A DNA stretch of 64,000 bases from Candidatus Ozemobacteraceae bacterium (GCA_965140445.1 OZ223236.1:2562010-2626009), one strand, 5' to 3'. Numbered from the stretch's first letter, positions 853-62,488 are shown. Numbers and translations: made by a program. Notes: a model not told the origin generated them from the sequence alone.

Positions 853-854
853 AA

Positions 855-2029: not shown

Positions 2030-2056
2030 CTAACTAACTAAGGAGAATTTATAAAA

Positions 2057-3082: not shown

Positions 3083-3089
3083 GCAACAC

Positions 3090-3111: not shown

Positions 3112-3148
3112 AAACTTTTCTTAGAAATATCAGGAGGCAAAAAAAATC

Positions 3149-3666: not shown

Positions 3667-3685
3667 AGAAAGGACTAGAGCGACA

Positions 3686-5411: not shown

Positions 5412-5427
5412 AAAAGGATTTTTAATA

Positions 5428-5805: not shown

Positions 5806-5807
5806 AA

Positions 5808-8313: not shown

Positions 8314-8326
8314 GGAGGCGCTGAAA

Positions 8327-8674: not shown

Positions 8675-8676
8675 CT

Positions 8677-9471: not shown

Positions 9472-9473
9472 AA

Positions 9474-11269: not shown

Positions 11270-11281
11270 AAGGAGACAAAC

Positions 11282-13048: not shown

Positions 13049-13049
13049 C

Positions 13050-13526
13050 ATGAAGAAATCATTAATATTTTTACTAATAACAATTTCTATTTTGCTTGTG
13101 ACTGTTTCTGTATCAGCTCAAAACGCTAGCTATTCAGCTAGCTATGATATTGAGACTGTTGTTAATAATAAAGTTGAGCAAATCAAAATAAACTTTCTTG
13201 ATGCAGTATTGAGCACTATTTCTGTCTTTCTGTTGTTTGTAGTAGCTCAGATTAAAGCATATTTTGCTCAAGCAACGAAAGAAAAACAGCACAAGCGCGG
13301 CTCAAGCGTCGTCGAAGATAGTTTGTTTTCTGCAATTTTTGAAGCTGATAGCACGCTTGAAAAAGTTTTAGCAAGTAAAGCTGAGCGCGTTCGTGTATCT
13401 GTAATTTGGGCTTCTATAGCTAAGACAAGACTAAAAGAATTAGCAGGATTTAAAAAAGCGGACTTAAATAATTGGATTTCAACACAACAAACAATCATTT
13501 TGAGCAAAAAAGCTCAAGGAGTCTAA
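13050..13526 (+). CDS. membrane protein with signal peptide (lysis-associated or moron; function unknown)
   Basis: 158 aa; N-terminus MKKSLIFLLITISILLVTVSVSA-QN plus one further hydrophobic helix (VLSTISVFLLFVVAQIKAYFA). Confidence 0.45.
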   Translation: MKKSLIFLLITISILLVTVSVSAQNASYSASYDIETVVNNKVEQIKINFLDAVLSTISVFLLFVVAQIKAYFAQATKEKQHKRGSSVVEDSLFSAIFEADSTLEKVLASKAERVRVSVIWASIAKTRLKELAGFKKADLNNWISTQQTIILSKKAQGV

Positions 13527-13630
13527 AAAATGAGATACCATATTTCGCCCGATTTATTATTTGTATATTTAGTTCTTGTGATTTTGTGCTTTCATGTTGC
13601 TGTTCCAGTGTTTTTCAGGAGCGTGAAATT

Positions 13631-14191
13631 ATGGCTAAGCTAGTGAGAATGAACGAAAACGACAAAAATTGTGGTTTAGTTGCTATGCAAATAGCGAGCA
13701 AGCTCGACTATGAAAAAATAAAAAATTCCTGGGCGGGCGGCTGGCTATCAGATAGCACAGACAAAGGAGCGGTTGGAGTACCTAACGACACTCCGCTAGA
13801 TCACTTTTCAACGCTCGAAAAACTCAAGTTAAAATTTAGAATTGTAACATGCAATGAAATCTTGAACGGCTCTTGTAGAGCTAGAAAAACAGTAATTTTG
13901 TTGCACTTGTCGAGCAGTTCAAAAAAAACAATTTGGGAAAAAATAAAAAACTGGTTTAGAGCAACTCTAGCGCAGCATTGGTGCGTATTAGAGTCAGTAG
14001 ATATTAAAAATCAAGTTTTGACTGTAGATTGGCTCTACTCAGATCAGAAAACAAAAACATTTTCTTTTTCAGAGTTTGAACAGCTATACAGTGCTGGCAC
14101 GCCAGCATGTGCGTATGAAATCGGCAGCGGCAATTACAAGGTTAAATGGTATCAGAGATTACTAGCAAAAATTTCTGGAAAATGGATCTAG
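13631..14191 (+). CDS. putative papain-fold cysteine peptidase (C39/CHAP-like), possible second lytic enzyme
   Basis: ATG at 13631 with AGGAG 9 nt upstream (track ORF begins at 13472); candidate catalytic Cys in NENDKNCG, His in AQHWCVL, Asp in ESVD. Motif-level inference only. Confidence 0.4.
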   Translation: MAKLVRMNENDKNCGLVAMQIASKLDYEKIKNSWAGGWLSDSTDKGAVGVPNDTPLDHFSTLEKLKLKFRIVTCNEILNGSCRARKTVILLHLSSSSKKTIWEKIKNWFRATLAQHWCVLESVDIKNQVLTVDWLYSDQKTKTFSFSEFEQLYSAGTPACAYEIGSGNYKVKWYQRLLAKISGKWI

Positions 14192-14200
14192 GAGATTATT

Positions 14201-14500
14201 ATGAGCGACTTAGCAGATCTCAACGAAAAACGAATAGATAGACTAGAAAACAGTGTTATTGAAATGAAAAAAGAGCTGAAAGTAGCTATTAAAGAAGGGT
14301 TCAAAGAATGCAGAGAAATTGCTCCGCTGACTTGTCCAAACTCGAAAAAATTAAGCTTGTCTAGTGCAATTATGCTCTGTAGCGTGCTGTGCGGGGTGTT
14401 TTTATTTCTCGCAAAAATTGGAGTTTTAGAAAACATTTCAATAAAAAAACAAACTAAAACTAGTATTAGCAGTGACAGACAAGAAGGAGCTAATAAATGA
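14201..14500 (+). CDS. putative holin (single transmembrane helix)
   Basis: 99 aa, AGGAG SD, charged coiled N-terminus then TM helix LSLSSAIMLCSVLCGVFLFLAKIGVL; overlaps the amidase start by 4 bp. Confidence 0.4.
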   Translation: MSDLADLNEKRIDRLENSVIEMKKELKVAIKEGFKECREIAPLTCPNSKKLSLSSAIMLCSVLCGVFLFLAKIGVLENISIKKQTKTSISSDRQEGANK

Positions 14501-15021
14501 AAATAGCACTAGTCGTCGGACACTCTAAAAAAGCAAAAGGGGCTCGAAACAGAGCGTCAAAAATGACTGAATTTGACTATAATGACGAGCTCGTTAAAAA
14601 AATAGCTGTTATGCTCAATAAAAGGGGCATAGACAACGTAATTGTCTATCGAGATAGCTATAGTGCTCTACCGGGAAAAATTAACGCTAAGAAGCCCACT
14701 TTTATTTTGAGCTTTCACGCGAACAGTTGCAAAAATGATGCTGTGTCTGGCTCAGAAGTTCTTTACTACAAAGATAGTAAAAAAGGAAAATTGCTTGCTC
14801 AAGTTATGCTCAATGCAATTGTAAAGACTCTTGAACTTAGAAATAGAGGCATAAAGCCGCGCTCAGAGAGCGATCGTGGCGGATATTTGCTAAAAAATAC
14901 TCATGCAGCTTGTGTCATACTAGAGCCTTTTTTTATTAATAATAATGCTGATTGCGAGACAGCTACGAATAAACTCGACGAGCTCGCTGTATCTATAGCT
15001 CTAGCTATTGAAAATATATGA
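14497..15021 (+). CDS. N-acetylmuramoyl-L-alanine amidase (Amidase_3 family) endolysin
   Basis: 174 aa with family hallmarks ALVVGHS...SFHANS...EVLYY...ILEPFF; AGGAG SD; located at the end of the phage late operon. Confidence 0.85.
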   Translation: MKIALVVGHSKKAKGARNRASKMTEFDYNDELVKKIAVMLNKRGIDNVIVYRDSYSALPGKINAKKPTFILSFHANSCKNDAVSGSEVLYYKDSKKGKLLAQVMLNAIVKTLELRNRGIKPRSESDRGGYLLKNTHAACVILEPFFINNNADCETATNKLDELAVSIALAIENI

Positions 15022-46941: not shown

Positions 46942-48765
46942 TTATTTTCCAGCTTTAGCTTTCATTGATTCATAATCAGCTTTAGCTTTGTTCATTTCCT
47001 GAGCAACTTTCATTGCATCAGCCTGACGTCCCTGGCTGAGCATTTCATTATAGAGCTTATAAAGCTCTTTGTATTTTGATTCTGCAAGCTGGATTTCGTC
47101 ATCATAAACACCCATTGAAGCTGCATCGCCAGCTATGGAAATTTCAGGAGCCTGAGCACCAGAAACTGGGATTTCTGCTCCACCAGCTACAGCGCCGATA
47201 GAAACTGGTCCAGCTGTATCAGCTACAACAGCACCACCCATTGGGTTTGAGCCTACAGGCATTCCGATTGAACCGTAGCTGCCTTTGCCTTTTCCGAAGA
47301 TTCCAGCGATTTTCTGTGCAGCCCAGTTTCCGAGCATACCACCAGCGATACCGCCGATAATTGTTCCGAATGGAGGGAAGATTGCAGAACCGAGCATTGC
47401 ACCAAGAGTTGATCCAACTGCCTGACCTGTAACACCAACCCAATCAATCTGTTTGAAAGCTTGTTTGATTGAGAATCTGCCGTTTTTGAGATCGCCAGCA
47501 AGGTAAGCGCCTACTGAGTTACCTACGATAGAACCGAAGGTAGGAGCAAGTGCTGACATAACGCCGCCAACTACAGGGATAGCTGAGAGGAAAGGCACGA
47601 AGAATGAACCAGCTGCTGCGCCAGTTACAGATCCTACTACGCCACCTGCGAATTCTGCAGAAGCTACAGTTTTAACTGCTTTTTTGAGGCTAGGTTTTTC
47701 ACCGCGCATCATCTGAGTAGCAAGGTCAACACCAACAGTGATACCAGCAGTCATAAGAAGGTTCTTAGCGCTGAAACCAGATTTGAGGCTACCTTTTACA
47801 TTGTCAACACCCTGTTTAGTCATTACTTTACCAGCTTCGTAGCCAGCTTTGAATTTTGTAGCAGTAGTGTTTTTGAGTTTTGTGAAGAAACCAGGTTTGT
47901 CAGCTTTTGCTACAGAACCAGTTGTAGACTGTGAAGCTTCAGGAGCCTGCTGAGTCTGCTGAGCCTGAGTTCCTTCTGAACTTTGGCTGCTCTGAGAAGA
48001 CTGTTCTGAACTCTGGCTGCTCTGTGAACTCTGTTCTGAGCTCTGAGAAGACTGTTCTGAACTTTGGCTGCTCTGAGAACTCTGCTCTGAGCTCTGTGAA
48101 CTCTGAGAAGAATCACCTTTAGCTGGAGTAGCTGGTTTTTTCTTGAAGATGCTAGCGATTCTATCTTTAGCACTCTTAAGGAGGCTTCCGATTTTGCTGC
48201 CAGTTGCTTTAAGAGCTCCGCCAACTTTGCTTCCAGTTGTTTTAACTGCATCGCCAACTTTGCCAGCGCCGGTTTTTACGCCGTCTACAGTTTTAGTTCC
48301 GAAAGCCTGTCCATTATCTTTTCCTGCTGAAAAGCTATCTTTGATTTTCTGGCCATATGAACTAAGTTCGTTCTTAATCCAACTGCCTGATTTGGCTCCG
48401 CTAGCTGCTGAAGTATCTGCTGCGTTAACTGCAGGCGCCTGAGCTGCTGACTGTGAAGAGCTTACTGCTGTGTTAGCAGTTGTGGCTGCAGCTGTAGATC
48501 CAGCGTTTCCACCGAAAATCAACTTTGTATACTGAGCCATGTCAAGTGCTACTGGCTGGCCATTTACATAGCGAACATTGTAGCTGGTTGTTGTAGGACC
48601 GCTCTTAACAGTTACCCACTGGCCTGGTGTTACGTTCATGCTCTGACCGCCAACATTTACCTTGATGCCACTGTAGGCGGCCATCAGAGGTGCTTCAAGT
48701 GCGAAGCTGGCAATAAGAACTACGCATAACAGTTTGCTGATAAGCTTAATTGTGCTGTTCCTCAT
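46942..48765 (-). CDS. secreted/membrane-associated repeat protein (Ser/Gln-rich repeats, Gly-zipper hydrophobic domain, C-terminal coiled coil)
   Basis: 607 aa; AGGAG 8 nt upstream of ATG; signal peptide; (SSQ/SSEQ)n tract at aa 218-264; Gly/Ala-rich hydrophobic segment; Lys/Glu-rich C-terminus. Confidence 0.6.
   Translation of the reverse strand: MRNSTIKLISKLLCVVLIASFALEAPLMAAYSGIKVNVGGQSMNVTPGQWVTVKSGPTTTSYNVRYVNGQPVALDMAQYTKLIFGGNAGSTAAATTANTAVSSSQSAAQAPAVNAADTSAASGAKSGSWIKNELSSYGQKIKDSFSAGKDNGQAFGTKTVDGVKTGAGKVGDAVKTTGSKVGGALKATGSKIGSLLKSAKDRIASIFKKKPATPAKGDSSQSSQSSEQSSQSSQSSEQSSQSSEQSSQSSQSSEQSSQSSQSSEGTQAQQTQQAPEASQSTTGSVAKADKPGFFTKLKNTTATKFKAGYEAGKVMTKQGVDNVKGSLKSGFSAKNLLMTAGITVGVDLATQMMRGEKPSLKKAVKTVASAEFAGGVVGSVTGAAAGSFFVPFLSAIPVVGGVMSALAPTFGSIVGNSVGAYLAGDLKNGRFSIKQAFKQIDWVGVTGQAVGSTLGAMLGSAIFPPFGTIIGGIAGGMLGNWAAQKIAGIFGKGKGSYGSIGMPVGSNPMGGAVVADTAGPVSIGAVAGGAEIPVSGAQAPEISIAGDAASMGVYDDEIQLAESKYKELYKLYNEMLSQGRQADAMKVAQEMNKAKADYESMKAKAGK
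47974..48114 (-). repeat. in-frame tandem nucleotide repeat encoding (SSQ/SSEQ)n
   Basis: Plus strand shows reiterated CTGAGAAGACTGTTCTGAACT(T/C)TGGCTGCTCTG(A/T)GAACTCTG(T/C)TCTGAGCT units. Confidence 0.7.
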
Positions 48766-48950: not shown

Positions 48951-48984
48951 GCAAAAACCGAGAGTTTTTGGCTCCCGGTTTTTT
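48951..48984 (-). terminator. intrinsic terminator downstream of hydG and the small ORF
   Basis: Stem CCGGGAG/CTCTCGG (one G-U in minus sense) followed by UUUUUGC; also plausible on the plus strand. Confidence 0.5.
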
Positions 48985-48998
48985 ACAAATTTCAAACA

Positions 48999-49247
48999 TT
49001 AAGATACGCAAGTCTTTGTGAGCAGGGGTTCTAGCTCCTGGATAATCTGTTCTTTACAGAAATTCTCACCTTGCACGAAAAAACCTATGTCTTTTGTTTC
49101 ATATATTAATTCTGATGGTAAAGGTAAAGTTTCTCCTGCTCCAATAAGAAAAGCCCAGCGTTTTCCAATTTTTCGGCAAATCCAGATTCTAATCTGGTAT
49201 TTTTTAGAAATAACTTCAAGATCAAATAAAGAGATCTCGTTCTCCAT
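48999..49247 (-). CDS. small hypothetical protein downstream of hydG
   Basis: About 82 aa from the internal ATG (track ORF 48999-49283 overlaps the hydG 3' end); sits between the hydG stop and the terminator. Weak evidence. Confidence 0.3.
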   Translation of the reverse strand: MENEISLFDLEVISKKYQIRIWICRKIGKRWAFLIGAGETLPLPSELIYETKDIGFFVQGENFCKEQIIQELEPLLTKTCVS

Positions 49248-50745
49248 TACATATCCTTTCGTAGTAATCCATTGTGGATTCAAACAATTTGGGTGAAAAA
49301 ACTGATGGAGTTTGCTTTTTTACCTCTTCGATTTCTGCTTTTATTACAGCTTCTCCAGCTTTTTTTGTTTCAGGAGAAGCGAAATCGTTGAGCCACTCTC
49401 TATAGGTAAGAATTGCATTCAATTTACAGAAGTGACATTCATGCCCAGATTTTAACATACTCATGATCTGATCGCCGGTTCTTCCGCATCTGTATCCAGC
49501 TGTGCAGAATGATGTGATAACGCCTTTTTTTGCAAGGTCACCGATGAGCTGATCTAATGTTCTTGTGTCCCCGAGCATAAATTGTTGTTCGTCTATATTC
49601 TGTTCTCCAGTAGCCTTTGAATAACCACCTATTCCAATAATCGTTGAGGCGTCAGTTTGTGTACAACCGACAAACAAAACGTCGTCTCTAACTTCCTGTG
49701 ATTCTCTGGCTGTTATAATGAGTCCTGTATAAGGAACTGCAAGACGGATTAAGGTAACGATTTTTTTAAAGTCTTCATCTGAAACGAAGTAGTCTTCATT
49801 CTGGTTATTTCCAAAAATTGGAGAATTACTGGCAGGGGTTATTCTGGGAAATGAGATGGTGTGTGGGCCAACTCCAAACTTTGTTTCCAACTCAATTGAG
49901 TGAGCCAGAAGCCCCATAACCTCAAATCTCCAATCGTAAAGTCCGAAAAGTGCGCCTATTGCTACATCATCTATCCCTGCTTCGTAGGCTCTATGGTGTA
50001 CATATAAGCGCCAGGGGAAGTTTCCTTTAACCGTATTTTCAGGGTGCATTTTCCTGTAGGTTTCGTGGTGATATGTTTCCTGAAAGACCTGGTAAGTACC
50101 GATTCCAACTTCGTGAAGCTTTCTTAAATCATCTACTGAAAGGGGAGCTGCATTAATATTGACTCTTCTAATCTCACCCTGTTTTTTGTCGGTTTTCACC
50201 TTGACGTCATAAATTGTCTTGATACTCTCTGCAATATAATCAGCGCCAGTTTGGGGATGCTCGCCATATACTACGATTACCCTTTTATGGCCAATATCTC
50301 CGGCAAGAACTTCGGCTTCTCGCTTAATTTCTTCCATTGATAAGCAAACCCGCTTTTCATCTTCATTGTCACATCTGAAGCCACAATACATGCAATTGTT
50401 TACGCAAAGGTTGCTGCAATATAAGGGAGCAAAGGTAACTATTCTATTGTCATAGACTTTAGTTTTTACTTTTGCAGCCATTTTATACATCTTATCCCAG
50501 GTTTCCGTTTTTTTTACTTTCATTAGAGTCGCAAGCTCTTCCGGGGAAAGGGTTTTTATTTGATAAGACTTTTCAAGGATTCTATCTACTTCTTCATCAG
50601 AAGGTTCTGATGCTTCGTTAATCTGTTTCCAGATCAAATCGTCGTCTATAAAATCTTTGCCATCTACCATGTGTTTTTCATATTCTTCAGGCTTGATGAC
50701 TTTGTTAATCCATGATTCTGGTGAAGCATTTTTATTTACTTGCAT
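49222..50745 (-). CDS. radical SAM protein of ThiH/HydG family, HydG-like ([FeFe]-hydrogenase maturase candidate)
   Basis: N-terminal block ...RIVTFAPLYCSNLCVNNCMYCGF (CX3CX2C) typical of ThiH/HydG; ~500 aa with Cys-containing C-terminal domain; start set to ATG with AGGAG 6 nt upstream. Confidence 0.7.
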   Translation of the reverse strand: MQVNKNASPESWINKVIKPEEYEKHMVDGKDFIDDDLIWKQINEASEPSDEEVDRILEKSYQIKTLSPEELATLMKVKKTETWDKMYKMAAKVKTKVYDNRIVTFAPLYCSNLCVNNCMYCGFRCDNEDEKRVCLSMEEIKREAEVLAGDIGHKRVIVVYGEHPQTGADYIAESIKTIYDVKVKTDKKQGEIRRVNINAAPLSVDDLRKLHEVGIGTYQVFQETYHHETYRKMHPENTVKGNFPWRLYVHHRAYEAGIDDVAIGALFGLYDWRFEVMGLLAHSIELETKFGVGPHTISFPRITPASNSPIFGNNQNEDYFVSDEDFKKIVTLIRLAVPYTGLIITARESQEVRDDVLFVGCTQTDASTIIGIGGYSKATGEQNIDEQQFMLGDTRTLDQLIGDLAKKGVITSFCTAGYRCGRTGDQIMSMLKSGHECHFCKLNAILTYREWLNDFASPETKKAGEAVIKAEIEEVKKQTPSVFSPKLFESTMDYYERICNGERDLFI

Positions 50746-50768
50746 AGGAAACTCCTGATTTGTGATTT

Positions 50769-51044
50769 TCAAATTTTTGTGAATACGGTTTTGACGCTGA
50801 TATCTGGTAGGAGCCCAATCTTCCCCGTTAAAGCACCAATTTCATCATTTGTTCCATCAACTATTAATGAAACAACAGAGATATTTCGCTCTTTATAGGG
50901 GATTCCCATTCGACCAACAATCAGGTGAGAAAATTCATGCAGCAGATTGTTAAAATCATTAACAGCAAGTCCGGGTGTTTTGAGAATAACTGCAACAACT
51001 CCGAGCCTTCTTTGCGCAGAATCTGCGCTATTCGTTCTGGTCAT
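50769..51044 (-). CDS. TM1266-like small protein (NikR C-terminal domain-like; putative hydrogenase-system regulator)
   Basis: 91 aa (VVAVILKTPG...HEFSHLIVGRMGIP...VVSLIVDGTNDEIGALTGKIGLL); AGGAG SD; 23 bp upstream of hydG. Family assignment from memory, not searched. Confidence 0.5.
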   Translation of the reverse strand: MTRTNSADSAQRRLGVVAVILKTPGLAVNDFNNLLHEFSHLIVGRMGIPYKERNISVVSLIVDGTNDEIGALTGKIGLLPDISVKTVFTKI

Positions 51045-51270
51045 TTTTTTGCTCCTTGATGTCAGGGAAACCCCTTCATCTTAGAAAAGTATGTTTATGA
51101 AAAGTTTCACAAACGTTAAGGTTAGTATACTAAATTTGTAGCATTTTGCAACCATAATTTTGCAAACTTAATTTTGCCAAATTACATCTGTTTGAGAAAA
51201 AAATCTCAAAGTTCTTGCCTAAGCAGGCCTTTTTATTTATCTTTGCAGTAATAAACACAGGGGCATATCA

Positions 51271-52650
51271 ATGGAACAAAAATTTCGCCTTGAACATGAC
51301 TTCATTGGAGAAAAATCAATTCCCACAGAAGCATTGTTTGGAATAAACTCCTTGCGAGCATTTGAGAACTTTTTTTTAACTGGAAAAAAAATCCCATCTG
51401 AAATGATTAGAGCGTTGGCAATGGTAAAAAAAGCTGCCGCAAAAGCTCATAAAAATTCAGGAGAAATTGCTGATGCTAAAGTAGAAGCCATTATAAGTGC
51501 TTGTGATGAAATGATTTCAGGAAAGCTCGATTCCGAAATCATTGTTGATCCTCTTCAGGGTGGAGCCGGAACAGCCGCTAATATGAACATCAACGAAGTC
51601 CTTGCTAATCGAGCAAATGTAATTCTTGGTGGGAATCCAGGAGATTATGAGCTGGTTCACCCTCTGGATCATGTCAATAAAGGACAAAGCACCAATGATG
51701 TTTTCCCTACTGCGCTTAAAATAGCAGCTATATGGGATTTGAGAGATATGGTTGAAGAGGTTGCCAGACTTCAGGAAGCTCTACAGGAAAAAGAAACTGA
51801 GTTCGCTCCAATTATAAAAATTGGGCGCACCCAACTTCAGGACGCCGTTCCCGTAACCTTGGGAGCTGAATTCAGTGCTTTTGCAGAAGCAATTTCCAGA
51901 GATAGATGGCGACTCTATCGAGTGGAAGAACGTCTTAGAGTTGTAAATCTAGGTGGAACTGCTATTGGGACAAGTATTCGGGCGAGAAGAGAATTTCAAT
52001 TTGAAATGCTTAAACATCTTAGAGATGAAACCGGAATTGGCATCGCTCGTGCTGAAAATCTTGTTGAGGCTACTCAAAATGCCGACGTTTTCTGTGAAAT
52101 TTCGGGTCTTTTAAAGCCATTGGCAGTTAACTTGTCTAAAATGGCATCTGATTTACGTTTACTTTCCTCTGGACCGCATTCTGGAATTGGAGAAATTTTT
52201 CTTCCGGCAGTTCAGGAAGGAAGTACTATCATGCCAGGGAAAGTGAATCCCGTAATGTGTGAAATGATAAATCAAGTTGCGATGAAGGTTATGGGCAACG
52301 ATTTAATTATTGCTCACGCTGCCGAGAGCGGACAGCTTGAGCTTAATGCTTTTTTACCACTTATAATGGATGTACTGTTGGAGTCGCTTACGATTCTGAG
52401 AAGAGGTATTGGTTTATTTACTGATAAATGTATAAAGGGCATAAAGGCTAACAAAGAAAGATGTGAGAAAAACTTAAAGGGGTCGCTAGGTATGCTGACT
52501 CTTCTAGCCGAAAAACTTGGGCATGATAAAACTTCCTTGATTTACAAAAAACACCTGGAAACAGGTGAGTCTGTAGAAAAACTTTTACTGGAAAACAAAT
52601 TTGTAACCTCTGAAGACATTGGAGAAGCATTAAAGGCATGTAGACCATAA
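51271..52650 (+). CDS. aspartate ammonia-lyase / class II fumarase family lyase
   Basis: 459 aa; fumarate-lyase signature GSTIMPGKVNPV and conserved N-terminal block (IPTEALFGINSLRAFENF). Confidence 0.85.
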   Translation: MEQKFRLEHDFIGEKSIPTEALFGINSLRAFENFFLTGKKIPSEMIRALAMVKKAAAKAHKNSGEIADAKVEAIISACDEMISGKLDSEIIVDPLQGGAGTAANMNINEVLANRANVILGGNPGDYELVHPLDHVNKGQSTNDVFPTALKIAAIWDLRDMVEEVARLQEALQEKETEFAPIIKIGRTQLQDAVPVTLGAEFSAFAEAISRDRWRLYRVEERLRVVNLGGTAIGTSIRARREFQFEMLKHLRDETGIGIARAENLVEATQNADVFCEISGLLKPLAVNLSKMASDLRLLSSGPHSGIGEIFLPAVQEGSTIMPGKVNPVMCEMINQVAMKVMGNDLIIAHAAESGQLELNAFLPLIMDVLLESLTILRRGIGLFTDKCIKGIKANKERCEKNLKGSLGMLTLLAEKLGHDKTSLIYKKHLETGESVEKLLLENKFVTSEDIGEALKACRP

Positions 52651-52684: not shown

Positions 52685-52728
52685 AAAACAAAAGGCCGTC
52701 TGCAACTTATGCAGACGGCCTTTTATAA
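52685..52728. terminator. bidirectional intrinsic terminator between convergent aspA-like and sppA genes
   Basis: Perfect 11-bp stem GGCCGTCTGCA/TGCAGACGGCC, 5-nt loop, flanked by A-run upstream and T-run downstream. Confidence 0.65.
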
Positions 52729-56631: not shown

Positions 56632-59583
56632 TTAAATTAGTTCGATAATCTCAAAAATTGGTTGTTTCTGTTTTTTGCCTTTTATCTCAATGTCGCCTAG
56701 ATTGCTGCAATTGGCATATTCTCCAATTGCTTTTTCTGTAGCCATTGACACTAGGATATATGTTGATTTTCCCAGCTTATGAATTGATTTTAATCGTGCC
56801 GCCATGTTTACTGTGTCACCAATAACAGTAAAATCCAATTTGCCAGTATGAGAGCCTATTTTACCTGATATGAGGCGACCTGTTGAAATTCCAGAATGGC
56901 ATGAAAACCTATCAGCAGTTATCTTTTTTAAAGTTAATGAAATTTCTAAAGCACTTTTACATGCATTGATAGCGTGATTACCTTTTTTGAAAACTACCAT
57001 CAAACTACCTTCTACAATTTTGTCTATTACCCCGTGATTTGCTCCGCATATTTTTGAAACAATTGATACGAATTGATTTAACAACTCAATAACTTGATTT
57101 GCTTCTTGTTCTTCGGAGAAGCTTTCAAAATTATCAATTTCACAAAATAAAATTGTCGCTTCAATTAAGTCGCCACCAGGTTTCAAATCTTCTTTACCCA
57201 TGTTTTCCATGTCTGCAAGAACATCTTTTGATACAAATTTTTCTAACTGCTCTTTTTGTGCAATATCTTTAGCCATTTCATTAAATGAGTCTGCAAGTTC
57301 TTCAAATTCGTCACCAGTATTTAATTGGCATCTATATTCAAGATTGTTGTTGGCAATATGCTGCAACTGTTTTGATATTATCTTGACTGGTCTTACATAG
57401 AACAACTGGGCAAGCAGTAATACGAATACAAATAGAATAACAAGGTAAACAACAATTTTAGCCGTAGATTTAAAAAAATCATTAACCATCTTCTTTTGTG
57501 GTGTTGCCGTCACTATACCAATGTAATTGAAATCTAGAATAGGTTCTATGCGCTTATAAACCGCACCTTCTTCCCATTGGACAGGAGTTTTCAATTTTAA
57601 AGATAAAGCAATTTGCTGGTGTTCCAGTGGGGTTAATTTTCTACTATTTATGTCGTATTTTCCTGTTTTGGCATTTTTTATGGAATAAGTAAAATCAATT
57701 TCATAGCCACTAAACACCTCTGACATCTCGCTCTTAACTTCTTTTAATGAGAAAAAGTCAGTTGCTAGTTTTTGCAAAGAATACATAATTTGGATGTATC
57801 CGGAAGGGGTGTTATGCTGATCATAGGTAAGAATATTTGCAAATTTGGTATTTGGCGACGATTTTTTTAGTGAAACCATTTCTCCTATGTGCCCAAGTGT
57901 GATTCTTTGTGAAGACTGGGTTTTTCTATAATTTCCAATTATTTTGTTTGCTAAACTACCTGTATCGGTTTTTTTATTGTTCATTGAATCCAAAAAAAAC
58001 GAACCAAAAATTATCGCTGGCTCATCTGTCGCATTGCCACCTTTTAGCTCTGGATTTGTTGATTGAGCTATCATAGGCTTTTCTACATTCGCCATATGAA
58101 ATAAAATTGTATCTGCGCCTACACGCGTTAACCATTTTTCAAAATACTTTTGAAGGCTTTCATTTCCATTTTTTAAAATCTTTTGGACTGTTATTCCCAA
58201 CTCAAGGTTTTGAATTTCTTTTTTTCTGAGAATATTGCTAAAAGCCTTTTTGATTTCGAGTGATTTATTTTCCATCGTGTGTTTTAAAAGAGATTTTTCA
58301 ATAGATGATGAAAATTTGCCATACAAGTTTCCAGTAAAGAAAAGAATTGCAACCGGCAAAATCAATGTAAAACAAATGCCTAGCATAATTTTGCCTTTAA
58401 TCGGCATTGAGAAGTTAAAACCAAAAATACTTAGTCCAAATATCACCACAGAACCCAGAATGAATAGCAATAAAAATATAAACTTTATGGTTTTAAGATG
58501 ACTGTAGAAAGGTGGTCGCAAATCTTTTTTATTTACGCTCACCCTAAGCAGTGGAATGTTGCTTTTGAGTTTTCTCAATCCGTTTGGGGCAAGCAGCCCC
58601 CCTTGAGATAAAAAAACAATAAATGATTGGGGTACAATTGCGTCTAGATGTATTTTTTCTTCATCTTCTAAAATCTTATCTGTTCCCAAAGCCTCCATTT
58701 GTTCCACAATTTCAGTCTCTTCAATCCGAACATTAGAATTTATTACACTTCTATTTAGCAATGGACTAAATGGTTTTCTACACGCATTTTTTATTATCAA
58801 CTTTGCAGGGATATCTTTTAACCTGATAATCGCCAGATAACCACCCAGGTTTGATTTTTTTCCATCTTTTGTACAAGTTGCTTCTGAAAAATAGAATAAG
58901 GTTTTACCGATTTCGCCTATTTTAGAAGAAATGCTTTCACTTGCTTTCTTATTTTTCAGCTGTATTTGATCAATGTTTCCAAAAATCGTTTTAAGGAAAA
59001 AGGCTGAATCCAAAACGGCCTTATCTTTTTTGACTTGCTTCAAATAGCTTAACAAGCTGTCTGAAGTAGATTTATGTTTCAAGATTTTTGCAGTTGATTG
59101 ATTATTCAACAACCCAAAGAATCTTTCCAGTAATATGTTTGGCGGCTTTCTTATTTTACTATTTTTAAGATGACTTCCCTGGGTAAAACTTATTGATTTT
59201 GTATCTGGACCATAATAAAAAAGCCCAGCAACTTTAAGTTGGGTGAATTTTTCAAGTTCGGTAAGTAAAATTTTAGCATCGAGTTTTTCAAATTTCTCTA
59301 CTAACGCTTTGTCTCTTGAAAAATCCTTAAACCCGAATTGCAGATCAAATTTGTTTAACAAATTTTCAATAAAGACTTTTGGCATAACGTCTTCTTTGAA
59401 TTTTTGAATTTCAAGATTAATTTTGGGCTTAATCTCTCGCAATTCGTTTTTAAGAGAAAAATCAGCAAAAGCAATCAAAGAGTAATATGAAATTAACAGG
59501 GGAATAGAAAGCAATAGCAACCAGATACTCAAGGCTAAGGTTGTTGATATTTTGCTTTTTGAGGATAATGTACTATTTCTCAT
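56632..59583 (-). CDS. membrane sensor class III adenylate/guanylate cyclase (extracytoplasmic sensor + HAMP + cyclase domain)
   Basis: 983 aa; two TM segments flanking a large N-terminal sensor region; C-terminal cyclase domain (ILFCEIDNFESF...VIGDTVNMAARL). Confidence 0.85.
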   Translation of the reverse strand: MRNSTLSSKSKISTTLALSIWLLLLSIPLLISYYSLIAFADFSLKNELREIKPKINLEIQKFKEDVMPKVFIENLLNKFDLQFGFKDFSRDKALVEKFEKLDAKILLTELEKFTQLKVAGLFYYGPDTKSISFTQGSHLKNSKIRKPPNILLERFFGLLNNQSTAKILKHKSTSDSLLSYLKQVKKDKAVLDSAFFLKTIFGNIDQIQLKNKKASESISSKIGEIGKTLFYFSEATCTKDGKKSNLGGYLAIIRLKDIPAKLIIKNACRKPFSPLLNRSVINSNVRIEETEIVEQMEALGTDKILEDEEKIHLDAIVPQSFIVFLSQGGLLAPNGLRKLKSNIPLLRVSVNKKDLRPPFYSHLKTIKFIFLLLFILGSVVIFGLSIFGFNFSMPIKGKIMLGICFTLILPVAILFFTGNLYGKFSSSIEKSLLKHTMENKSLEIKKAFSNILRKKEIQNLELGITVQKILKNGNESLQKYFEKWLTRVGADTILFHMANVEKPMIAQSTNPELKGGNATDEPAIIFGSFFLDSMNNKKTDTGSLANKIIGNYRKTQSSQRITLGHIGEMVSLKKSSPNTKFANILTYDQHNTPSGYIQIMYSLQKLATDFFSLKEVKSEMSEVFSGYEIDFTYSIKNAKTGKYDINSRKLTPLEHQQIALSLKLKTPVQWEEGAVYKRIEPILDFNYIGIVTATPQKKMVNDFFKSTAKIVVYLVILFVFVLLLAQLFYVRPVKIISKQLQHIANNNLEYRCQLNTGDEFEELADSFNEMAKDIAQKEQLEKFVSKDVLADMENMGKEDLKPGGDLIEATILFCEIDNFESFSEEQEANQVIELLNQFVSIVSKICGANHGVIDKIVEGSLMVVFKKGNHAINACKSALEISLTLKKITADRFSCHSGISTGRLISGKIGSHTGKLDFTVIGDTVNMAARLKSIHKLGKSTYILVSMATEKAIGEYANCSNLGDIEIKGKKQKQPIFEIIELI

Positions 59584-62488
59584 TTTTTATCTCATAAACT
59601 AGCCCATGCTTGTCTAACTCAAACTCATCTAACAAATATAGATCAGAAACCTTTTTTGCTACGCATGAATCAATAATAATTTTTGTATGTTTTCCGTCTT
59701 TTGACGCAGCTTCAAGATCATTCGCCTTTTTTATTGGTCTTCCGGTGATAGTAAATTCAAGATACTCGCCACTGTCTCCAACATTTCCTGAGATGATCTC
59801 GCCATGGGAAATCCCAACGCCATTTTCTACGGTAATTAATCTATTTTTTTCTCTTTCAGAGTTAAATAAAGTTAAAGACTGCCTCATTGTCACTGCAGCT
59901 TTACAAGCGTTTAACATAGTATTTTCATTTTCTTTCGTTGGGTAAAAAACAGCAATAATCGCATCGCCTATAAATTTATCTATCACTCCACCATTACTTA
60001 TAATTGCTGCCTCCATCAACGTAAAATATTCGTTTAAAAGAGCAACAATAACTTCCGGTTCGCAGGTTTCTGTTATAGATGTAAAGCCTCTAATATCGCT
60101 ACATAATACTGTTGCATGATTGCTTTCACCTTTACAATTTTCAACATTATCATTTTCTTTCAAAGTGGAGAGAAGCTTTTCAGAAACAAATCTGGAAATA
60201 TTCTTTCTCATTTGGAGCTCTGATGTCATATTATTAAAAATTAAACCCATTTCTTCTATTTCATCTTTTGTATTTATTGAAACTTTGGTCAAAAAATCAT
60301 GCTCTTTTCTTATTTGTTCCGCTCCTCTGTACAACGTGCGAATTGGAGAATTGAACAAACTGGACATTGCTTCTGCCATCAATACAAGTATTATCAACGA
60401 CATAACACCCATAAAGGCAGGTAAAAAAAGAAATAAAGAATGCAATTTCATTTCTTTGCCTATGTCTGCCATTGCCGAAAAAACAAATTTTGAATTGCCG
60501 TAATATCTCCATTCGGTAAGCATTTTTCCGTTATTTGTAGAAACTATCTTGCGTCCAGACACCCTGTCTCTAATAGTTTCTTTGGCGAAATTAACCAACT
60601 CCACTTTGTCCAGGTTTCCAAGAAAATAGCCTAGTTTTCCTTGATCAAGAAATAAAACTGAAATCCTACTTGTTCCAACAATTCCATCTTTATGGATATC
60701 AAAAAAGCTATAATATTTTTCTACATTTTTTAACAAAGCTGATATCACCAAATCAATAGCAAACTGCAGAAAAGAAGCTGCAAATACTGACTTTCCAGGT
60801 TTATTGTCTTTATAGAGATTGAAAACACTTGTATTTTTTGTGTTAATTTCCACAGGGCTTATCTCAATTTCTGATTCAGCAGCCAGAATTCTAGGGTTAT
60901 CTATCAAGTCTAGATAATCACCAGCCAGGCCTGTTGTCATTTGAACGACTTTTATTAAATGTTTAGTCTTAGATGACTTTTTGTCTAAGACGCCTAGATT
61001 TGATAACGCCTTAATTCCAAGAGAAATATGAATTGGATTAGGCCTACTTTTAGTGGGCTTAACAATTATGTTTCCCGAGTTATCCAGAATGAAAAATTTG
61101 GGAACCAAACCATAGCCAGATGGAAATTTTTCAGAAACAGGTGGCTTATAATTATTTTCAAACAATTTCTTTGTTAATTGCTTTTTCAGCTCAAGACAAA
61201 ATATAGTTTGTCGACAATTTGCCTCATAAAAAATTCGCTCGAATTGGTCAAGCTTTCCAGAAACTATTGAGATCGCATTGTTTAGATGAAATTTATCTAT
61301 CTGCTGATAAATCAAAAATGAGAAAAGACTGGTAAATAACATCGGAAAAATAGCTACACTAAAAACAATCAACATGAACTTTCGTCTCAAACTGATTGAA
61401 ATTGTATTTTTGAATAAAATGCCTCTTATCCACAAAAAGAAAACAAACAACAAAATGCATCTGTTTGAGAAACTGAAAACAGGAATCAAAGTATTCAAAT
61501 TTGATTTCAGCAAATTTGCATCGATAGTTATGGCTATTCTTTGTTTTGGGCTTACAATAAATTTTTCGTTACTATTTAATCTACTCTGAGTATAAATAAC
61601 TCGAACAAGATCTGGTGGCAAAAATGAAGATACTGATGATCTGGAATCCTGTAAATTTGATGTTAAAATCCGTTTCGCTCCCTGAAACGGATTTTTGTTC
61701 AACACATTTTCAAGCAGTTTTGAAACGTTGATGTCAGATTCGAGAACTCCAAAAATAAAGGCCCCATGGATTCTACCCTGGGAAACTATTGGAGCAGAAT
61801 AAACAAACACTCTTTGTTGTTTAAATATAGTCGTATAGTAACTGTTGCAAGTGTTTGGGGTAGGGAGTGTGTTGGCAAATTTGCCAAATACTTTGAATGT
61901 TTTATCTACTATTTTTTCCCAATCATAATTGGAAAAAATAAAAGTGTTTTGAAGAACTTCATAAAAATCAAACTTACGAATATGCGGTAGAGAAATAAGC
62001 CATCTACAGTGTTCTGGAAAGTTATATAAAGTGGTCAAAGCCATAAGAAAATCAAATCCATTATCTAAAGAAGCCTTATTGGTAAAACGTTTCGAATAAT
62101 TTTTGTAAATATTGCTGAAGCTTCTATCTGCTGCAATTAAAAAAAATGGCTTCACACCATATTTTTCTTTTAAGGTTTTATGACAATTCTTGCCAAAATT
62201 GAATGGATCAAATTCTTCAGGATTTGTAATATACCTGGCAAAAATATCTGCCATAGCATTGTTTACATAGGCTGGTGTGGTTAAATCAGATTGAAAATCA
62301 ATAATTCCTTGAGTTAGGTTTTCTTTGACAGTTGCTTGCAAAGCACTTTCATGTTTATCAATCTCATTTTTGAGCTGTTGTTGAACCAAGAAAAGAGGTA
62401 GACAAAGAACTGCAAGCATGACTATTGCAATAGCTGAAATTAGCGAGTTATAACCAATTCCAGATTCTGTTGTCTGATGAATACCCAA
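59573..62488 (-). CDS. membrane sensor class III adenylate/guanylate cyclase (paralogue of downstream gene)
   Basis: 971 aa; same architecture, cyclase motifs VLCSDIRGFTS...FIGDAIIAVF; TTG start per track; 11-bp overlap with downstream paralogue. Confidence 0.85.
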   Translation of the reverse strand: MGIHQTTESGIGYNSLISAIAIVMLAVLCLPLFLVQQQLKNEIDKHESALQATVKENLTQGIIDFQSDLTTPAYVNNAMADIFARYITNPEEFDPFNFGKNCHKTLKEKYGVKPFFLIAADRSFSNIYKNYSKRFTNKASLDNGFDFLMALTTLYNFPEHCRWLISLPHIRKFDFYEVLQNTFIFSNYDWEKIVDKTFKVFGKFANTLPTPNTCNSYYTTIFKQQRVFVYSAPIVSQGRIHGAFIFGVLESDINVSKLLENVLNKNPFQGAKRILTSNLQDSRSSVSSFLPPDLVRVIYTQSRLNSNEKFIVSPKQRIAITIDANLLKSNLNTLIPVFSFSNRCILLFVFFLWIRGILFKNTISISLRRKFMLIVFSVAIFPMLFTSLFSFLIYQQIDKFHLNNAISIVSGKLDQFERIFYEANCRQTIFCLELKKQLTKKLFENNYKPPVSEKFPSGYGLVPKFFILDNSGNIIVKPTKSRPNPIHISLGIKALSNLGVLDKKSSKTKHLIKVVQMTTGLAGDYLDLIDNPRILAAESEIEISPVEINTKNTSVFNLYKDNKPGKSVFAASFLQFAIDLVISALLKNVEKYYSFFDIHKDGIVGTSRISVLFLDQGKLGYFLGNLDKVELVNFAKETIRDRVSGRKIVSTNNGKMLTEWRYYGNSKFVFSAMADIGKEMKLHSLFLFLPAFMGVMSLIILVLMAEAMSSLFNSPIRTLYRGAEQIRKEHDFLTKVSINTKDEIEEMGLIFNNMTSELQMRKNISRFVSEKLLSTLKENDNVENCKGESNHATVLCSDIRGFTSITETCEPEVIVALLNEYFTLMEAAIISNGGVIDKFIGDAIIAVFYPTKENENTMLNACKAAVTMRQSLTLFNSEREKNRLITVENGVGISHGEIISGNVGDSGEYLEFTITGRPIKKANDLEAASKDGKHTKIIIDSCVAKKVSDLYLLDEFELDKHGLVYEIKNEK

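What the first reader, a model, noticed from the sequence alone, without database searches (positions are those of the whole stretch)
48999..52650. Orphan hydG-like maturase with TM1266-like regulator and divergent aspartate ammonia-lyase-like gene
A ThiH/HydG-family radical SAM protein of HydG size with a Cys-bearing C-terminal domain is co-oriented with a small NikR-C-terminal-like (TM1266-type) protein and a small downstream ORF. A fumarate-lyase-family (AspA-like) gene lies divergent to them. No hydA, hydE or hydF is present in the window. I recall that a TM1266-type protein and an AspA-like lyase accompany hyd maturases in Thermotoga-type clusters, but I cannot verify that here. If true, this is a partial [FeFe]-hydrogenase maturation locus and the lyase may have a maturation-linked role.
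Basis: partly seen in the sequence, partly recalled or inferred. Interest (0 to 1): 0.5.

Follow-up and report, generated by a model that had tools for sequence, protein, structure and literature searches.

The report
Partial FeFe-hydrogenase maturation gene module
This part of a Riflebacteria genome encodes HydG, one of three enzymes that build the active site of iron-only hydrogenase, with its usual helper genes; the arrangement is already described, but two conserved parts, a tiny protein and an RNA leader, match no family in Pfam, NCBIfam or Rfam.

Summary
On the minus strand lie a TM1266-family gene (50769-51044), a true hydG (49222-50745; HydG model 456 bits against a cut-off of 312, ThiH model below its cut-off) and an 82-aa ORF (48999-49247). 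An aspartase-like gene (51271-52650) is divergent. The 64-kb window holds no hydA, hydE or hydF.

The source is a Riflebacteria (Ozemobacter-like) genome, a single 5.2-Mb contig. Every Riflebacteria relative keeps the same TM1266-hydG-small-ORF triplet away from hydE/F/A. Other phyla hold the same genes inside full hydA/E/F/G clusters, so this is a split hyd maturation module.

The aspartase link is published: Pagnier et al. 2024 showed ammonia supply for the dithiomethylamine ligand. The headline finding is therefore ordinary.

Two parts appear uncatalogued:
- **The 82-aa ORF.** It belongs to a family of 422 clusters with no Pfam or NCBIfam model. It overlaps the hydG stop by 26 nt and is sometimes fused to HydE.
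- **An RNA leader (51049-51087).** This three-helix structure sits upstream of TM1266 genes across phyla. It covaries, occludes the ribosome-binding site or precedes a terminator, and matches no Rfam family.

I could not test whether hydA/E/F exist elsewhere in this genome.

The parts
51271..52650 (+). Aspartate ammonia-lyase-like gene of the hyd-linked clade (459 aa), divergent from the hydG operon
   Evidence: NF008909 627 bits (cut-off 510); TIGR00839 539 bits (cut-off 681). Solved aspartases score 405-441 bits against 337 or less for fumarases. Catalytic residues T101, S140, T141, N142, T187, S318, K324 and N326 are conserved. A neighbour-joining tree places it inside the hyd-linked clade. 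pN/pS is 0.23-0.25 against L001 and L002.
51124..51180 (-). Promoter-like hexamers for the TM1266-hydG operon (TTGCAA, 16 nt, TATACT, ending at 51124)
   Evidence: Consensus scan; the total number of sites in the region is not above chance. The same TTGC(C/A)A...TATAAT arrangement occurs at the same place in Riflebacteria relatives. This is an inference, not a demonstrated promoter.
51143..51184 (.). Three direct repeats of T(T/G)GCAAAAT spaced 14 nt apart, overlapping the promoter-like site
   Evidence: Present as a triple only in the window; relatives have one copy or none. Possible operator; function unknown.
51093..51114 (-). 5'-proximal hairpin of the leader (GUUUGUGA...UCAUAAAC), specific to Riflebacteria
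   Evidence: Read from the sequence. Relatives carry TTGTGAAA-N8-TTTCACAA at the same place.
51049..51087 (-). Conserved three-helix leader RNA. P0 is UCU/GGA(G), which is the Shine-Dalgarno sequence. P2 is GAUG/CAUC. P1 is (A)GGG/CCC(U). The helices are separated by small A/G-rich internal loops (AA opposite AA, and A opposite GA).
   Evidence: Covariance model R1: 35.7 bits, E=8e-6, and the only hit in the window. MFE -12 kcal/mol, z=-1.85. No Rfam family matches.
50769..51044 (-). TM1266-family small protein (91 aa), annotated as a 'putative iron-only hydrogenase system regulator'
   Evidence: TIGR03959 100 bits, PF21699 103.6 bits. PDB 2NZC at E=5e-13. pN/pS is 0.19-0.28.
49222..50745 (-). 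hydG, the radical SAM tyrosine lyase and [Fe(Cys)(CO)2(CN)] synthon synthase (507 aa)
   Evidence: TIGR03955 456 bits. 4WCX 441 bits. CX3CX2C motif CVNNCMYC. Three conserved C-terminal Cys. pN/pS is 0.17-0.19.
48999..49247 (-). 82-aa ORF of a conserved, unmodelled family coupled to hydG; its start overlaps the hydG stop by 26 nt
   Evidence: The family is found directly after hydG in 41 of 81 loci. 422 representatives at E<=1e-3. No Pfam or NCBIfam model. Fusions to HydE exist: P0142 and L075. AF2 pLDDT 86.7. pN/pS is 0.36-0.39 in the non-overlapping part. The overlap is 26 nt in 33 of 37 loci.
48953..48978 (-). Terminator-like hairpin (CCGGGAG-N7-CTCTCGG, then TTTTT) ending the operon
   Evidence: Read by eye from the sequence. 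The consensus scan did not list it.
52688..52726 (.). Bidirectional terminator-like hairpin between the AspA-like gene and the convergent S49 peptidase gene
   Evidence: 15-17 pairs, with T-runs on both strands.

Best explanation

One minus-strand operon reads: promoter, about 70 nt of structured leader, TM1266-family protein, HydG, 82-aa protein, terminator.

- HydG (function established for the family) cleaves tyrosine by radical SAM chemistry. It builds the Fe(CO)2(CN)(Cys) synthon that is passed to HydE.
- The divergently transcribed AspA-like lyase belongs to the clade that travels with hyd genes. It most likely releases ammonium from aspartate for the dithiomethylamine bridge. That route runs through the glycine-cleavage H-protein and HydF, and was shown in vitro with E. 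coli AspA, not with a hyd-linked enzyme.
- HydE, HydF and the hydrogenase itself are inferred to be encoded elsewhere in the 5.2-Mb genome.

Two further inferences:
1. The 82-aa protein is translationally coupled to HydG and is fused to the N-terminus of HydE in some organisms. I therefore propose it acts at the HydG-to-HydE hand-off as an adaptor or chaperone.
2. The leader folds into a three-helix hairpin whose outer 3' strand is the Shine-Dalgarno sequence. In other phyla the same hairpin is followed by a terminator. A stabilised fold would therefore switch the operon off. The most likely stabiliser is the TM1266 protein encoded immediately downstream, giving negative autoregulation. TM1266 has a ligand-binding-type fold and no DNA-binding domain.
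For: Shown:
- Family assignments.
- Source lineage and the single 5,206,294-bp contig.
- The triplet TM1266-hydG-smallORF is conserved in every Riflebacteria locus. The same genes sit inside complete hydA/E/F/G clusters in Thermotogae, Syntrophales and others, with HydA/E/F verified by NCBIfam.
- Synonymous sites are saturated (pS about 0.8) while pN is 0.14-0.34 for all four genes, which indicates purifying selection.
- The AspA-like protein lies in the hyd-linked clade with its catalytic residues intact.
- The AspA-to-DTMA nitrogen route is published (PMC11736057).

Small ORF:
- Present in 41 of 81 loci, with 422 clusters in the exhaustive search.
- A fixed 26-nt overlap with hydG.
- It stays with hydG when hydE/F are elsewhere.
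- HydE fusions P0142 and L075.

Leader:
- R1 gave 56 hits in 1.26 Mb searched on both strands. All are on the hydG strand, one per locus. 54 lie directly upstream of TM1266, with no hits elsewhere.
- 23 of 25 loci lacking TM1266 have no motif.
- In an independent metagenome set the motif is about 100-fold enriched upstream of TM1266, with 19 different P2 duplexes.
- Covariation exceeds shuffled controls.
- There are two expression platforms: Shine-Dalgarno occlusion, or a downstream terminator whose 5' arm (UCCC) can pair with the P0 3' strand.
Against: - No hydA, hydE or hydF lies in the window or within 10 kb of hydG in any Riflebacteria locus. I could not show that they exist in this genome.
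- The AspA-like gene is next to hydG only in the window and its two closest relatives, L001 and L002. Other Riflebacteria lack it at that site.
- The AspA-like protein fails the strict AspA equivalog cut-off. No hyd-linked lyase has been assayed.
- Two leader copies (L066, L074) sit upstream of hydG with no TM1266 within 10 kb. Many TM1266 genes in the metagenome set lack a recognisable leader. Binding of TM1266 to the RNA is therefore not required by the data.
- The window's own leader folds only modestly better than shuffles (z=-1.85).
Confidence: 0.8

Rival explanations
1. The genome has no [FeFe]-hydrogenase. This HydG-like enzyme, with TM1266 and the small protein, serves another Fe-CO/CN or tyrosine-derived cofactor pathway, or is a relic.
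For: No hydA/E/F lies within 49 kb on one side and 13 kb on the other side of hydG in the window, or within the fetched flanks (up to 10 kb) in 10 other Riflebacteria loci. Their presence in the genome could not be shown.
Against: - The protein passes the HydG equivalog model along its full length.
- It is 56-64% identical to HydGs that sit inside complete hydA/E/F/G operons.
- All genes of the module are under purifying selection.
- Isolated hydG loci are common (15 of 51). They include Caldanaerobacter subterraneus (L023). The [FeFe]-hydrogenase of Thermoanaerobacter tengcongensis, which from memory I take to be the same species, has been produced and characterised (PMC4694547).
- The companions TM1266, the small ORF and the AspA-like gene are the same as in full hyd clusters.
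Confidence: 0.07
2. The AspA-like gene is a housekeeping aspartase or fumarase-type lyase. Its position next to hydG is coincidental.
For: - It is divergently transcribed with its own terminator.
- It is absent from this site in most Riflebacteria, where the S49 peptidase gene abuts TM1266 directly.
- All aspartase catalytic residues are ordinary, and Gln at the AspB His188 position is shared with E. coli AspA.
Against: - In a neighbour-joining tree it falls inside the clade formed only by AspA-like genes that lie within hyd clusters, apart from E. coli AspA, Bacillus AspB and 8RJ1.
- It shows the same score pattern as those genes: the subfamily model passes and the equivalog model fails.
- 32 of 81 hydG loci carry such a gene.
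- The association is published (PMC11736057).
Confidence: 0.15
3. The leader is a riboswitch that senses a small molecule or metal ion directly. Alternatively it is bound by a factor other than TM1266. In either case TM1266 is merely the first gene of the regulated operon.
For: - Two leader copies control hydG directly in loci without TM1266 (L066, L074).
- The RNA has the two alternative expression platforms typical of riboswitches.
- Many TM1266 genes lack the motif.
Against: - 54 of 56 copies are immediately upstream of a TM1266 gene, and 23 of 25 TM1266-less hydG loci have none.
- The RNA is short (about 35-45 nt) and pseudo-twofold symmetric, with two similar GA/RA internal loops. That would suit a dimeric protein.
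- TM1266 has no DNA-binding domain that would explain its 'regulator' label.
Confidence: 0.25
4. The 82-aa ORF is not a gene. It is an out-of-frame artefact of the conserved 3' end of hydG.
For: The first 8-9 codons lie inside hydG, so their conservation (M-x-K/N-E-T/I) is explained by the HydG C-terminus NGERDL(Y/F).
Against: - The conserved core (IW..K.GRRWS[FY]..G) lies outside the overlap.
- 422 clusters were found in an exhaustive search.
- pN/pS is 0.36-0.39 in the non-overlapping part, with saturated synonymous sites.
- The AF2 fold is confident (pLDDT 86.7).
- In-frame fusions to HydE exist.
Confidence: 0.03

Closest known systems
Thermotoga-type hyd maturation cluster (TM1266-hydG-...-hydE-hydF-aspA); TIGRFAM/NCBIfam families TIGR03955, TIGR03959, TIGR03956 and TIGR03918
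   Same: The same HydG clade (63-64% identity), the same TM1266 family, the same small ORF overlapping the hydG stop, and the same AspA-like clade.
   Different: In the window and in all Riflebacteria loci, hydE, hydF and hydA are not within the fetched flanks (up to 10 kb). The AspA-like gene is divergent instead of co-oriented.
aspA-hyd operon association and the ammonia-lyase route to the dithiomethylamine ligand (Pagnier et al., J Biol Chem 2024, PMC11736057; adjacency noted in Pelobacter carbinolicus, PMC3543383)
   Same: An aspartase-family gene sits next to hyd maturase genes. The proposed role is supply of NH4+ for the DTMA bridgehead nitrogen.
   Different: The paper reports aspA closest to hydF and tested E. 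coli AspA. Here the partner is hydG/TM1266. The enzyme is only 44% identical to E. coli AspA, and it belongs to a separate hyd-linked clade that fails the AspA equivalog cut-off.
[quoted passage not shown]
   Same: A gene of unknown function placed between hydG and hydE. That is where the 82-aa family sits in full clusters.
   Different: HydX is reported as 23.9 kDa, whereas this family is mostly 75-120 aa. I could not obtain the HydX sequence, so homology is untested. None of the 150 listed hits in the exhaustive search has a length near 215 aa.
Autoregulatory leader RNAs bound by their own gene product (for example PyrR, TRAP and ribosomal-protein leaders) and small riboswitches with dual expression platforms
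   Same: A structured 5' leader either occludes the Shine-Dalgarno sequence or precedes an intrinsic terminator, depending on lineage. It lies directly upstream of a small putative regulator gene.
   Different: No Rfam 15 family matches, even at E<=10. The architecture is three stacked helices with two GA/RA 2x2 loops, which matches none of those Rfam families. No binding partner is known. The resemblance is functional analogy only.

Membership tests
HydG (TIGR03955, [FeFe] hydrogenase H-cluster radical SAM maturase) | Full-length score above the curated equivalog cut-off and above the ThiH score | tested here: met
   456.2 bits against a cut-off of 312, with profile positions 1-467 of 470 matched. 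ThiH scores 250 against 380.
HydG (TIGR03955, [FeFe] hydrogenase H-cluster radical SAM maturase) | N-terminal radical SAM CX3CX2C cluster motif | tested here: met
   CVNNCMYC is present. PF04055 scores 50.7 bits. The motif aligns with the 4WCX motif.
HydG (TIGR03955, [FeFe] hydrogenase H-cluster radical SAM maturase) | Three C-terminal Cys for the auxiliary cluster (CX2CX22C in the solved HydGs) | tested here: inconclusive
   Three Cys are conserved but spaced C-x5-C-x19-C (CTAGYRCGRTG...FC) instead of CTACYR...FC. The first-to-last span is the same. The variant is shared by all 75 related HydGs, including those inside complete hydEFG operons.
HydG (TIGR03955, [FeFe] hydrogenase H-cluster radical SAM maturase) | Co-occurrence with hydE, hydF and an [FeFe]-hydrogenase in the same genome | tested here: inconclusive
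   Absent from the 64-kb window.
HydG (TIGR03955, [FeFe] hydrogenase H-cluster radical SAM maturase) | Tyrosine lyase activity and CO/CN synthon formation | not testable with these tools
   Requires biochemistry.
TM1266 family (TIGR03959 / PF21699) | Score above the curated cut-offs and homology to the solved TM1266 structure | tested here: met
   100 bits (cut-off 60.8) and 103.6 bits (cut-off 27). 2NZC at E=5e-13.
TM1266 family (TIGR03959 / PF21699) | Gene neighbourhood with hyd maturase genes | tested here: met
   It lies directly upstream of hydG with a 4-nt overlap of stop and ORF start region. 56 of 81 hydG loci carry one.
TM1266 family (TIGR03959 / PF21699) | Regulatory function | not testable with these tools
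   The label is only 'putative'. The protein has no DNA-binding domain. The conserved leader RNA upstream is circumstantial evidence.
Aspartate ammonia-lyase (AspA) | Score above the curated cut-off of the AspA equivalog model TIGR00839 | tested here: not met
   539 bits against 681. The subfamily model NF008909 is met (627 against 510). The hyd-linked homologues L036 and L069 show the same pattern.
Aspartate ammonia-lyase (AspA) | Catalytic and substrate-binding residues (AspB numbering T101, S140, T141, N142, T187, S318 in the SS loop, K324, N326) | tested here: met
   All are conserved. Position 188 is Gln, as in E. coli AspA.
Aspartate ammonia-lyase (AspA) | Closer to aspartases than to class II fumarases | tested here: met
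   Solved aspartases score 405-441 bits; fumarases score 337 or less. Identity is 44-47% to aspartases and 38% to E. coli FumC.
Aspartate ammonia-lyase (AspA) | Aspartate deamination activity | not testable with these tools
   No hyd-linked member has been assayed. PMC11736057 used E. coli AspA.
HydX (Shewanella hydGXEF) | Position immediately after hydG and before hydE | tested here: met
   In the window it follows hydG. In L036 and L069 the family sits between hydG and hydE.
HydX (Shewanella hydGXEF) | Sequence homology to SO_3924 | not tested
   The sequence was not obtainable here. The sizes differ (23.9 kDa against 82 aa).
Any Rfam 15 family (for the leader RNA) | Match reaching the family's gathering score | tested here: not met
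   No match at gathering score. The best permissive hits score 15-23 bits and are driven by terminator hairpins or A-rich tails.

The most novel reading that the evidence does not exclude
The [FeFe]-hydrogenase maturation system has two widespread components I did not find described:

1. A pseudo-symmetric three-helix leader RNA. It is the operator of the TM1266 protein, which would make TM1266 an RNA-binding, ligand-sensing attenuator rather than a DNA-binding regulator.
2. A protein of about 80-100 aa, translationally coupled to HydG and sometimes fused to HydE. It would act as a fourth dedicated maturation factor at the HydG-to-HydE synthon hand-off.
Probability: 0.3. Interest if true: 0.75.

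Novelty: new member of a known kind. Interest (0 to 1): 0.5.

Why it matters
As a locus this is a routine, correctly read piece of the hyd maturation system in a little-studied candidate phylum. It adds nothing to the published AspA story.

Defined in-vitro maturation systems are still gaining components. Papers retrieved here describe roles for the glycine-cleavage H-protein, ammonia-lyases and NfuA. The label 'putative regulator' for TM1266 has never been given a mechanism.

The data here make two questions directly testable:
- A conserved small protein is genetically welded to hydG and occasionally fused to HydE. It is an obvious candidate to add to such systems.
- A covarying leader RNA lies directly upstream of TM1266 genes in many phyla. 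It gives a concrete hypothesis for how hyd maturation genes are controlled.

Tried and rejected
- **Exact look-up of window proteins.** This was meant to fetch the rest of the genome, but the proteins are not on record. Cluster look-up only showed that the genome is a single 5,206,294-bp contig.
- **Search for HydE/HydF in the same genome.** I used a chimeric Thermotogae HydF+HydE query and the contig length as a fingerprint. There were 7972 hits, only 120 were listed, and none came from that contig. The result is inconclusive.
- **Literature on Riflebacteria hydrogenases.** Nothing specific was accessible.
- **His188 to Gln in the lyase.** It looked like a diagnostic substitution, but E. coli AspA also has Gln there. 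I rejected it as a marker.
- **Covariance model R2.** Built from an N-padded structural seed, it performed worse than R1 and was dropped.
- **A loose structural descriptor for the leader.** It hit about 25% of the controls and was replaced by a strict one.
- **TM1268 and hydX literature searches.** No paper on the small family was found. HydX of Shewanella is a positional analogue of unknown relation.
- **Rfam scans of the leader.** These were run at gathering and at permissive thresholds and gave nothing.

Full report
**1. Observation**

The ORF map shows four genes in the region.
- On the minus strand is a 91-aa ORF (50769-51044), then a 516-aa ORF (49222-50772), then a small ORF.
- The 516-aa ORF most likely starts at the ATG at 50745, which is preceded by AGGAG. 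This gives 507 aa.
- The small ORF starts at 49247, which is 26 nt inside the end of the large ORF, and ends at 48999. It encodes 82 aa.
- A terminator-like hairpin follows. I read it by eye; the scan did not list it.
- On the plus strand, divergent, is a 459-aa ORF (51271-52650).

Family scans gave these results.
- The large protein scores 456 bits on HydG TIGR03955 (cut-off 312). It scores only 250 on ThiH (cut-off 380).
- The 91-aa protein scores 100 bits on TIGR03959 and 104 bits on PF21699, the TM1266 family.
- The lyase passes the aspartate ammonia-lyase subfamily model (627 against 510) but not the AspA equivalog (539 against 681).
- The small ORF hits nothing.

Solved-structure searches agree. 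HydG matches 4WCX and 4RTB, TM1266 matches 2NZC, and solved aspartases score ahead of fumarases for the lyase.

Pfam scans of the other 44 large ORFs of the window found no second radical SAM protein and no hydrogenase large subunit. The only other GTPase is YchF. tblastn with NCBIfam-verified HydA, HydE and HydF found only the HydG paralogue itself.

**2. Source and comparative context**

The best HydG relatives (75-81% identity) are MAGs of Candidatus Riflebacteria/Rifleibacteriota, the closest labelled Candidatus Ozemobacter. The window's proteins occur in the protein collection on one contig of 5,206,294 bp.

In all eleven Riflebacteria loci the triplet TM1266-hydG-smallORF is conserved. 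No hydE, hydF or hydA lies within the fetched flanks.

The AspA-like gene is present only in the window and its two closest relatives, L001 and L002. There it sits between an S49 peptidase gene and TM1266. In the other Riflebacteria the peptidase gene abuts TM1266 directly.

Outside the phylum the same genes lie in complete clusters.
- L036 (Syntrophales): hydA-TM1266-aspA-hydF-hydG-smallORF-hydE.
- L069 and L027 (Thermotogae): hydA-TM1266-hydG-smallORF-hydE-hydF-aspA.

Counts over the 81 hydG loci:

| Gene near hydG | Loci |
|---|---|
| TM1266 | 56 |
| small ORF | 41 |
| AspA-like | 32 |
| hydE | 51 |
| hydF | 50 |
| hydA | 30 |

Of 51 loci with at least 3 kb on both sides, 15 have no hydE/F/A nearby. 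One of these is Caldanaerobacter subterraneus (L023). The [FeFe]-hydrogenase of Thermoanaerobacter tengcongensis, which from memory I take to be the same species, has been produced and characterised (PMC4694547). An isolated hydG is therefore common and does not imply a missing hydrogenase.

Synonymous sites between the window and its relatives are saturated (pS about 0.8). Nonsynonymous differences stay at 0.14-0.34 for all four genes. This is consistent with all four being maintained by selection.

**3. The lyase**

The hyd-aspA association and a mechanism are already published. Pagnier et al. (J Biol Chem 2024, PMC11736057) found aspA in the neighbourhood of hyd genes in many genomes. They showed by 15N-ENDOR that E. 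coli AspA plus aspartate can deliver the bridgehead nitrogen of the dithiomethylamine ligand. The route runs through ammonium and the glycine-cleavage H-protein. The adjacency was already remarked on for Pelobacter carbinolicus in 2012 (PMC3543383).

The window's enzyme keeps all aspartase catalytic residues. A Gln at the AspB His188 position first looked distinctive, but E. coli AspA has it too.

In a neighbour-joining tree the enzyme falls within a clade made only of hyd-linked AspA-like proteins (45-55% identity). That clade is separate from E. coli AspA, Bacillus AspB and 8RJ1 (44-47% identity). The hyd-linked proteins tested (window, L036, L069) all pass the subfamily model and fail the equivalog model. 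The tree has no support values and few outgroups, so I treat the clade as likely rather than proven.

**4. The 82-aa ORF**

A local iterative HMM found homologues directly after hydG in 41 of 81 loci. These include Riflebacteria, Thermotogae, Caldanaerobacter, Thermodesulfovibrio, Thermodesulfobacterium, WOR-3, Omnitrophota, Aminicenantes, Cloacimonadota, Desulfobacterales and Archaeoglobaceae MAGs.

- The start overlaps the hydG stop by exactly 26 nt in 33 of 37 loci. This explains the conserved N-terminus and implies translational coupling.
- The conserved core, IW..(E/K).GRRWS(F/Y)..G, lies outside the overlap.
- An exhaustive profile search of 1.84 billion representatives found 422 clusters at E<=1e-3 and 179 at E<=1e-10. 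Nearly all of the 150 listed are 75-120 aa.
- Every source name is 'hypothetical protein', and no member hits Pfam or NCBIfam.
- Two fusions to the N-terminus of HydE exist. One is P0142, 448 aa, with the family domain at 1-105 and TIGR03956 at 119-431. The other is the truncated ORF in L075.
- AlphaFold2 with a 43-sequence alignment gives a confident helix, four strands, helix fold (pLDDT 86.7).

The family stays with hydG when hydE and hydF are elsewhere. From that linkage, the coupling and the HydE fusions, I infer a role at the HydG-HydE interface. I cannot show it.

Shewanella's hydX occupies the same position in hydGXEF and has no known function. It is reported as 23.9 kDa (PMC2991362, PMC4694547). 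Homology is untested.

**5. The leader RNA**

Aligning the regions upstream of TM1266 genes revealed a conserved element:

5'-(UU)CCU-GA-[N2-4]-RA-GGG(N)...loop...(N)CCU-GA-[N2-4]-RA-GGG(AA)-3'

In the window it lies at 51049-51087 on the minus strand: UUUCUAAGAUGAAGGGGUUUCCCUGACAUCAAGGAGCAA.

Evidence for the structure:
- RNAalifold on a plain MAFFT alignment predicted an outer helix P0 and an inner helix P1.
- Single-sequence folding gave three or more nested helices in 51 of 53 distinct copies. The middle helix, P2, is formed by the two variable stretches.
- P2 covaries: GAUG/CAUC, GGU/ACC, GGG/CCC, GAUC/GAUC, GAAG/CUUC, GGUU/AACU, GAG/CUC, GAUU/AAUC, AG/CU.
- The helices are separated by two small internal loops, typically GA opposite GA or AA.
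- On the model-fitted alignment, 95% of cells pair and the covariation score exceeds all 500 shuffles.
- On a structure-fitted alignment, 9 of 11 pairs show double changes, in 72 cells against 22 +/- 4.5 in shuffles. That alignment was fitted to each sequence's own fold, so the percentage paired is biased.

Evidence for specificity:
- A covariance model (R1) searched over 1.26 Mb on both strands gave 56 hits at E<=1. There was exactly one per locus, all on the hydG strand.
- 54 hits lie directly upstream of a TM1266 gene. The other two (L066, L074) lie directly upstream of hydG in loci without TM1266. There were no hits anywhere else.
- 23 of 25 TM1266-less loci have no copy.

As an independent test I fetched 80 TM1266 loci from metagenomes.
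- R1 found 34 hits, all on the TM1266 strand and nearly all within about 200 nt upstream of the gene.
- A strict descriptor found the motif in 31 of 73 distinct upstream regions (19 kb). It found 10 hits in 627 kb elsewhere in the same loci. That is about 100-fold enrichment.
- The 31 copies carry 19 different P2 duplexes, for example UAAU/AUUA, CUUA/UAAG, CGGU/ACCG, CUGC/GCAG and GAAU/AUUC.
- Some TM1266 genes clearly lack the motif, and divergent variants escape both searches.

Two expression platforms occur.
- In Riflebacteria, Thermotogae, WOR-3 and others, the 3' strand of P0 is the Shine-Dalgarno sequence AGGAG of TM1266.
- In Omnitrophota, Spirochaetota, Syntrophales and others, the motif is followed by an intrinsic terminator. 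The 5' arm of that terminator begins UCCC, which is complementary to the GGGA of P0.

Both designs predict that a stabilised fold turns the operon off. Rfam 15 has no matching family even at E<=10. Full-text searches found no description.

TM1266 is a 76-91-aa protein matching only the TM1266-like Pfam domain (PF21699), with no separate DNA-binding domain. Its gene almost always follows the motif. The simplest model is therefore negative autoregulation by TM1266 binding its own leader. A riboswitch is the main rival, favoured by the two TM1266-less copies.

**6. What I could not establish**

I could not establish whether the genome encodes HydE, HydF and a hydrogenase. Exact-sequence look-ups did not return the contig. 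A homology search that used contig length as a fingerprint listed only 120 of 7972 hits.

**7. Verdict**

The value added here lies in the two conserved, apparently uncatalogued components. Both are present in the window and widespread in hyd clusters generally.

Noticed in passing
window 49420-49520 (HydG residues about 410-440); all HydG ORFs in L001-L080: HydG here, and all 75 related HydGs examined, carry the C-terminal cluster motif as CTAGYRCGRTG...x...FC (C-x5-C-x19-C). The two solved HydGs (4WCX, 4RTB) have CTACYR...FC (C-x2-C-x22-C). The middle Cys is shifted by three residues and the overall span is unchanged. The window's HydG has one extra Cys (HECHFC).
   Followed up: partly
window 1-15021: A prophage-like block. 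It holds a phage cement protein (154-504), a Laminin_G_3/ConA-like protein (8677-9471) and an N-acetylmuramoyl-L-alanine amidase (14497-15021). About 15 co-oriented ORFs between them have no Pfam hit.
   Followed up: no
window 51143-51184: Three direct repeats of T(T/G)GCAAAAT at 14-nt spacing overlap the predicted -35 region of the TM1266-hydG promoter. Relatives have one copy at most. The motif TTGC(C/A)AAATGCTACAAA is shared with L007 and L032.
   Followed up: partly
window 51093-51114 (minus); same place in L001-L009, L032, L046: A Riflebacteria-specific inverted repeat, TTGTGAAA-N8-TTTCACAA, lies at the very 5' end of the predicted transcript and upstream of the three-helix motif. It could be a 5' stabilising hairpin or a DNA operator.
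   Followed up: no
proteins P0198, P0201-P0209, P0213, P0301: Natural HydF-HydE fusion proteins (655-829 aa, carrying both HydF domains and a Radical_SAM domain) appeared among the top hits of the chimeric HydF+HydE query.
   Followed up: no
L039, L042 and others: Some hyd clusters encode a second, divergent TM1266-like small protein (for example MIGTITILMDANKRAPEINEILHKNAEFILGRMGLPQ...). Its gene ends just before the leader motif of the canonical TM1266 gene.
   Followed up: no
hyd-linked AspA-like genes in L010, L024, L033, L034, L036 and others: About two thirds of hyd-linked AspA-like proteins have Glu at the position of AspB His188 / E. coli AspA Gln191 (GRTELQ[DE]A). The window and the Thermotogae/Aminicenantes types have Gln. 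I did not explore what this means for substrate or mechanism.
   Followed up: partly
window 46942-48765 (minus): A 607-aa secreted or membrane protein. It has a long SSQSSEQSSQ low-complexity repeat and a C-terminal glycine-zipper region. Its gene lies immediately downstream of the hydG operon terminator.
   Followed up: no
window 56632-62488 (minus): Two tandem paralogous proteins of about 975 aa, each with a HAMP domain and an adenylate/guanylate cyclase domain.
   Followed up: no
L144 2837-2920: Two copies of the leader motif in tandem lie upstream of one TM1266 gene.
   Followed up: no
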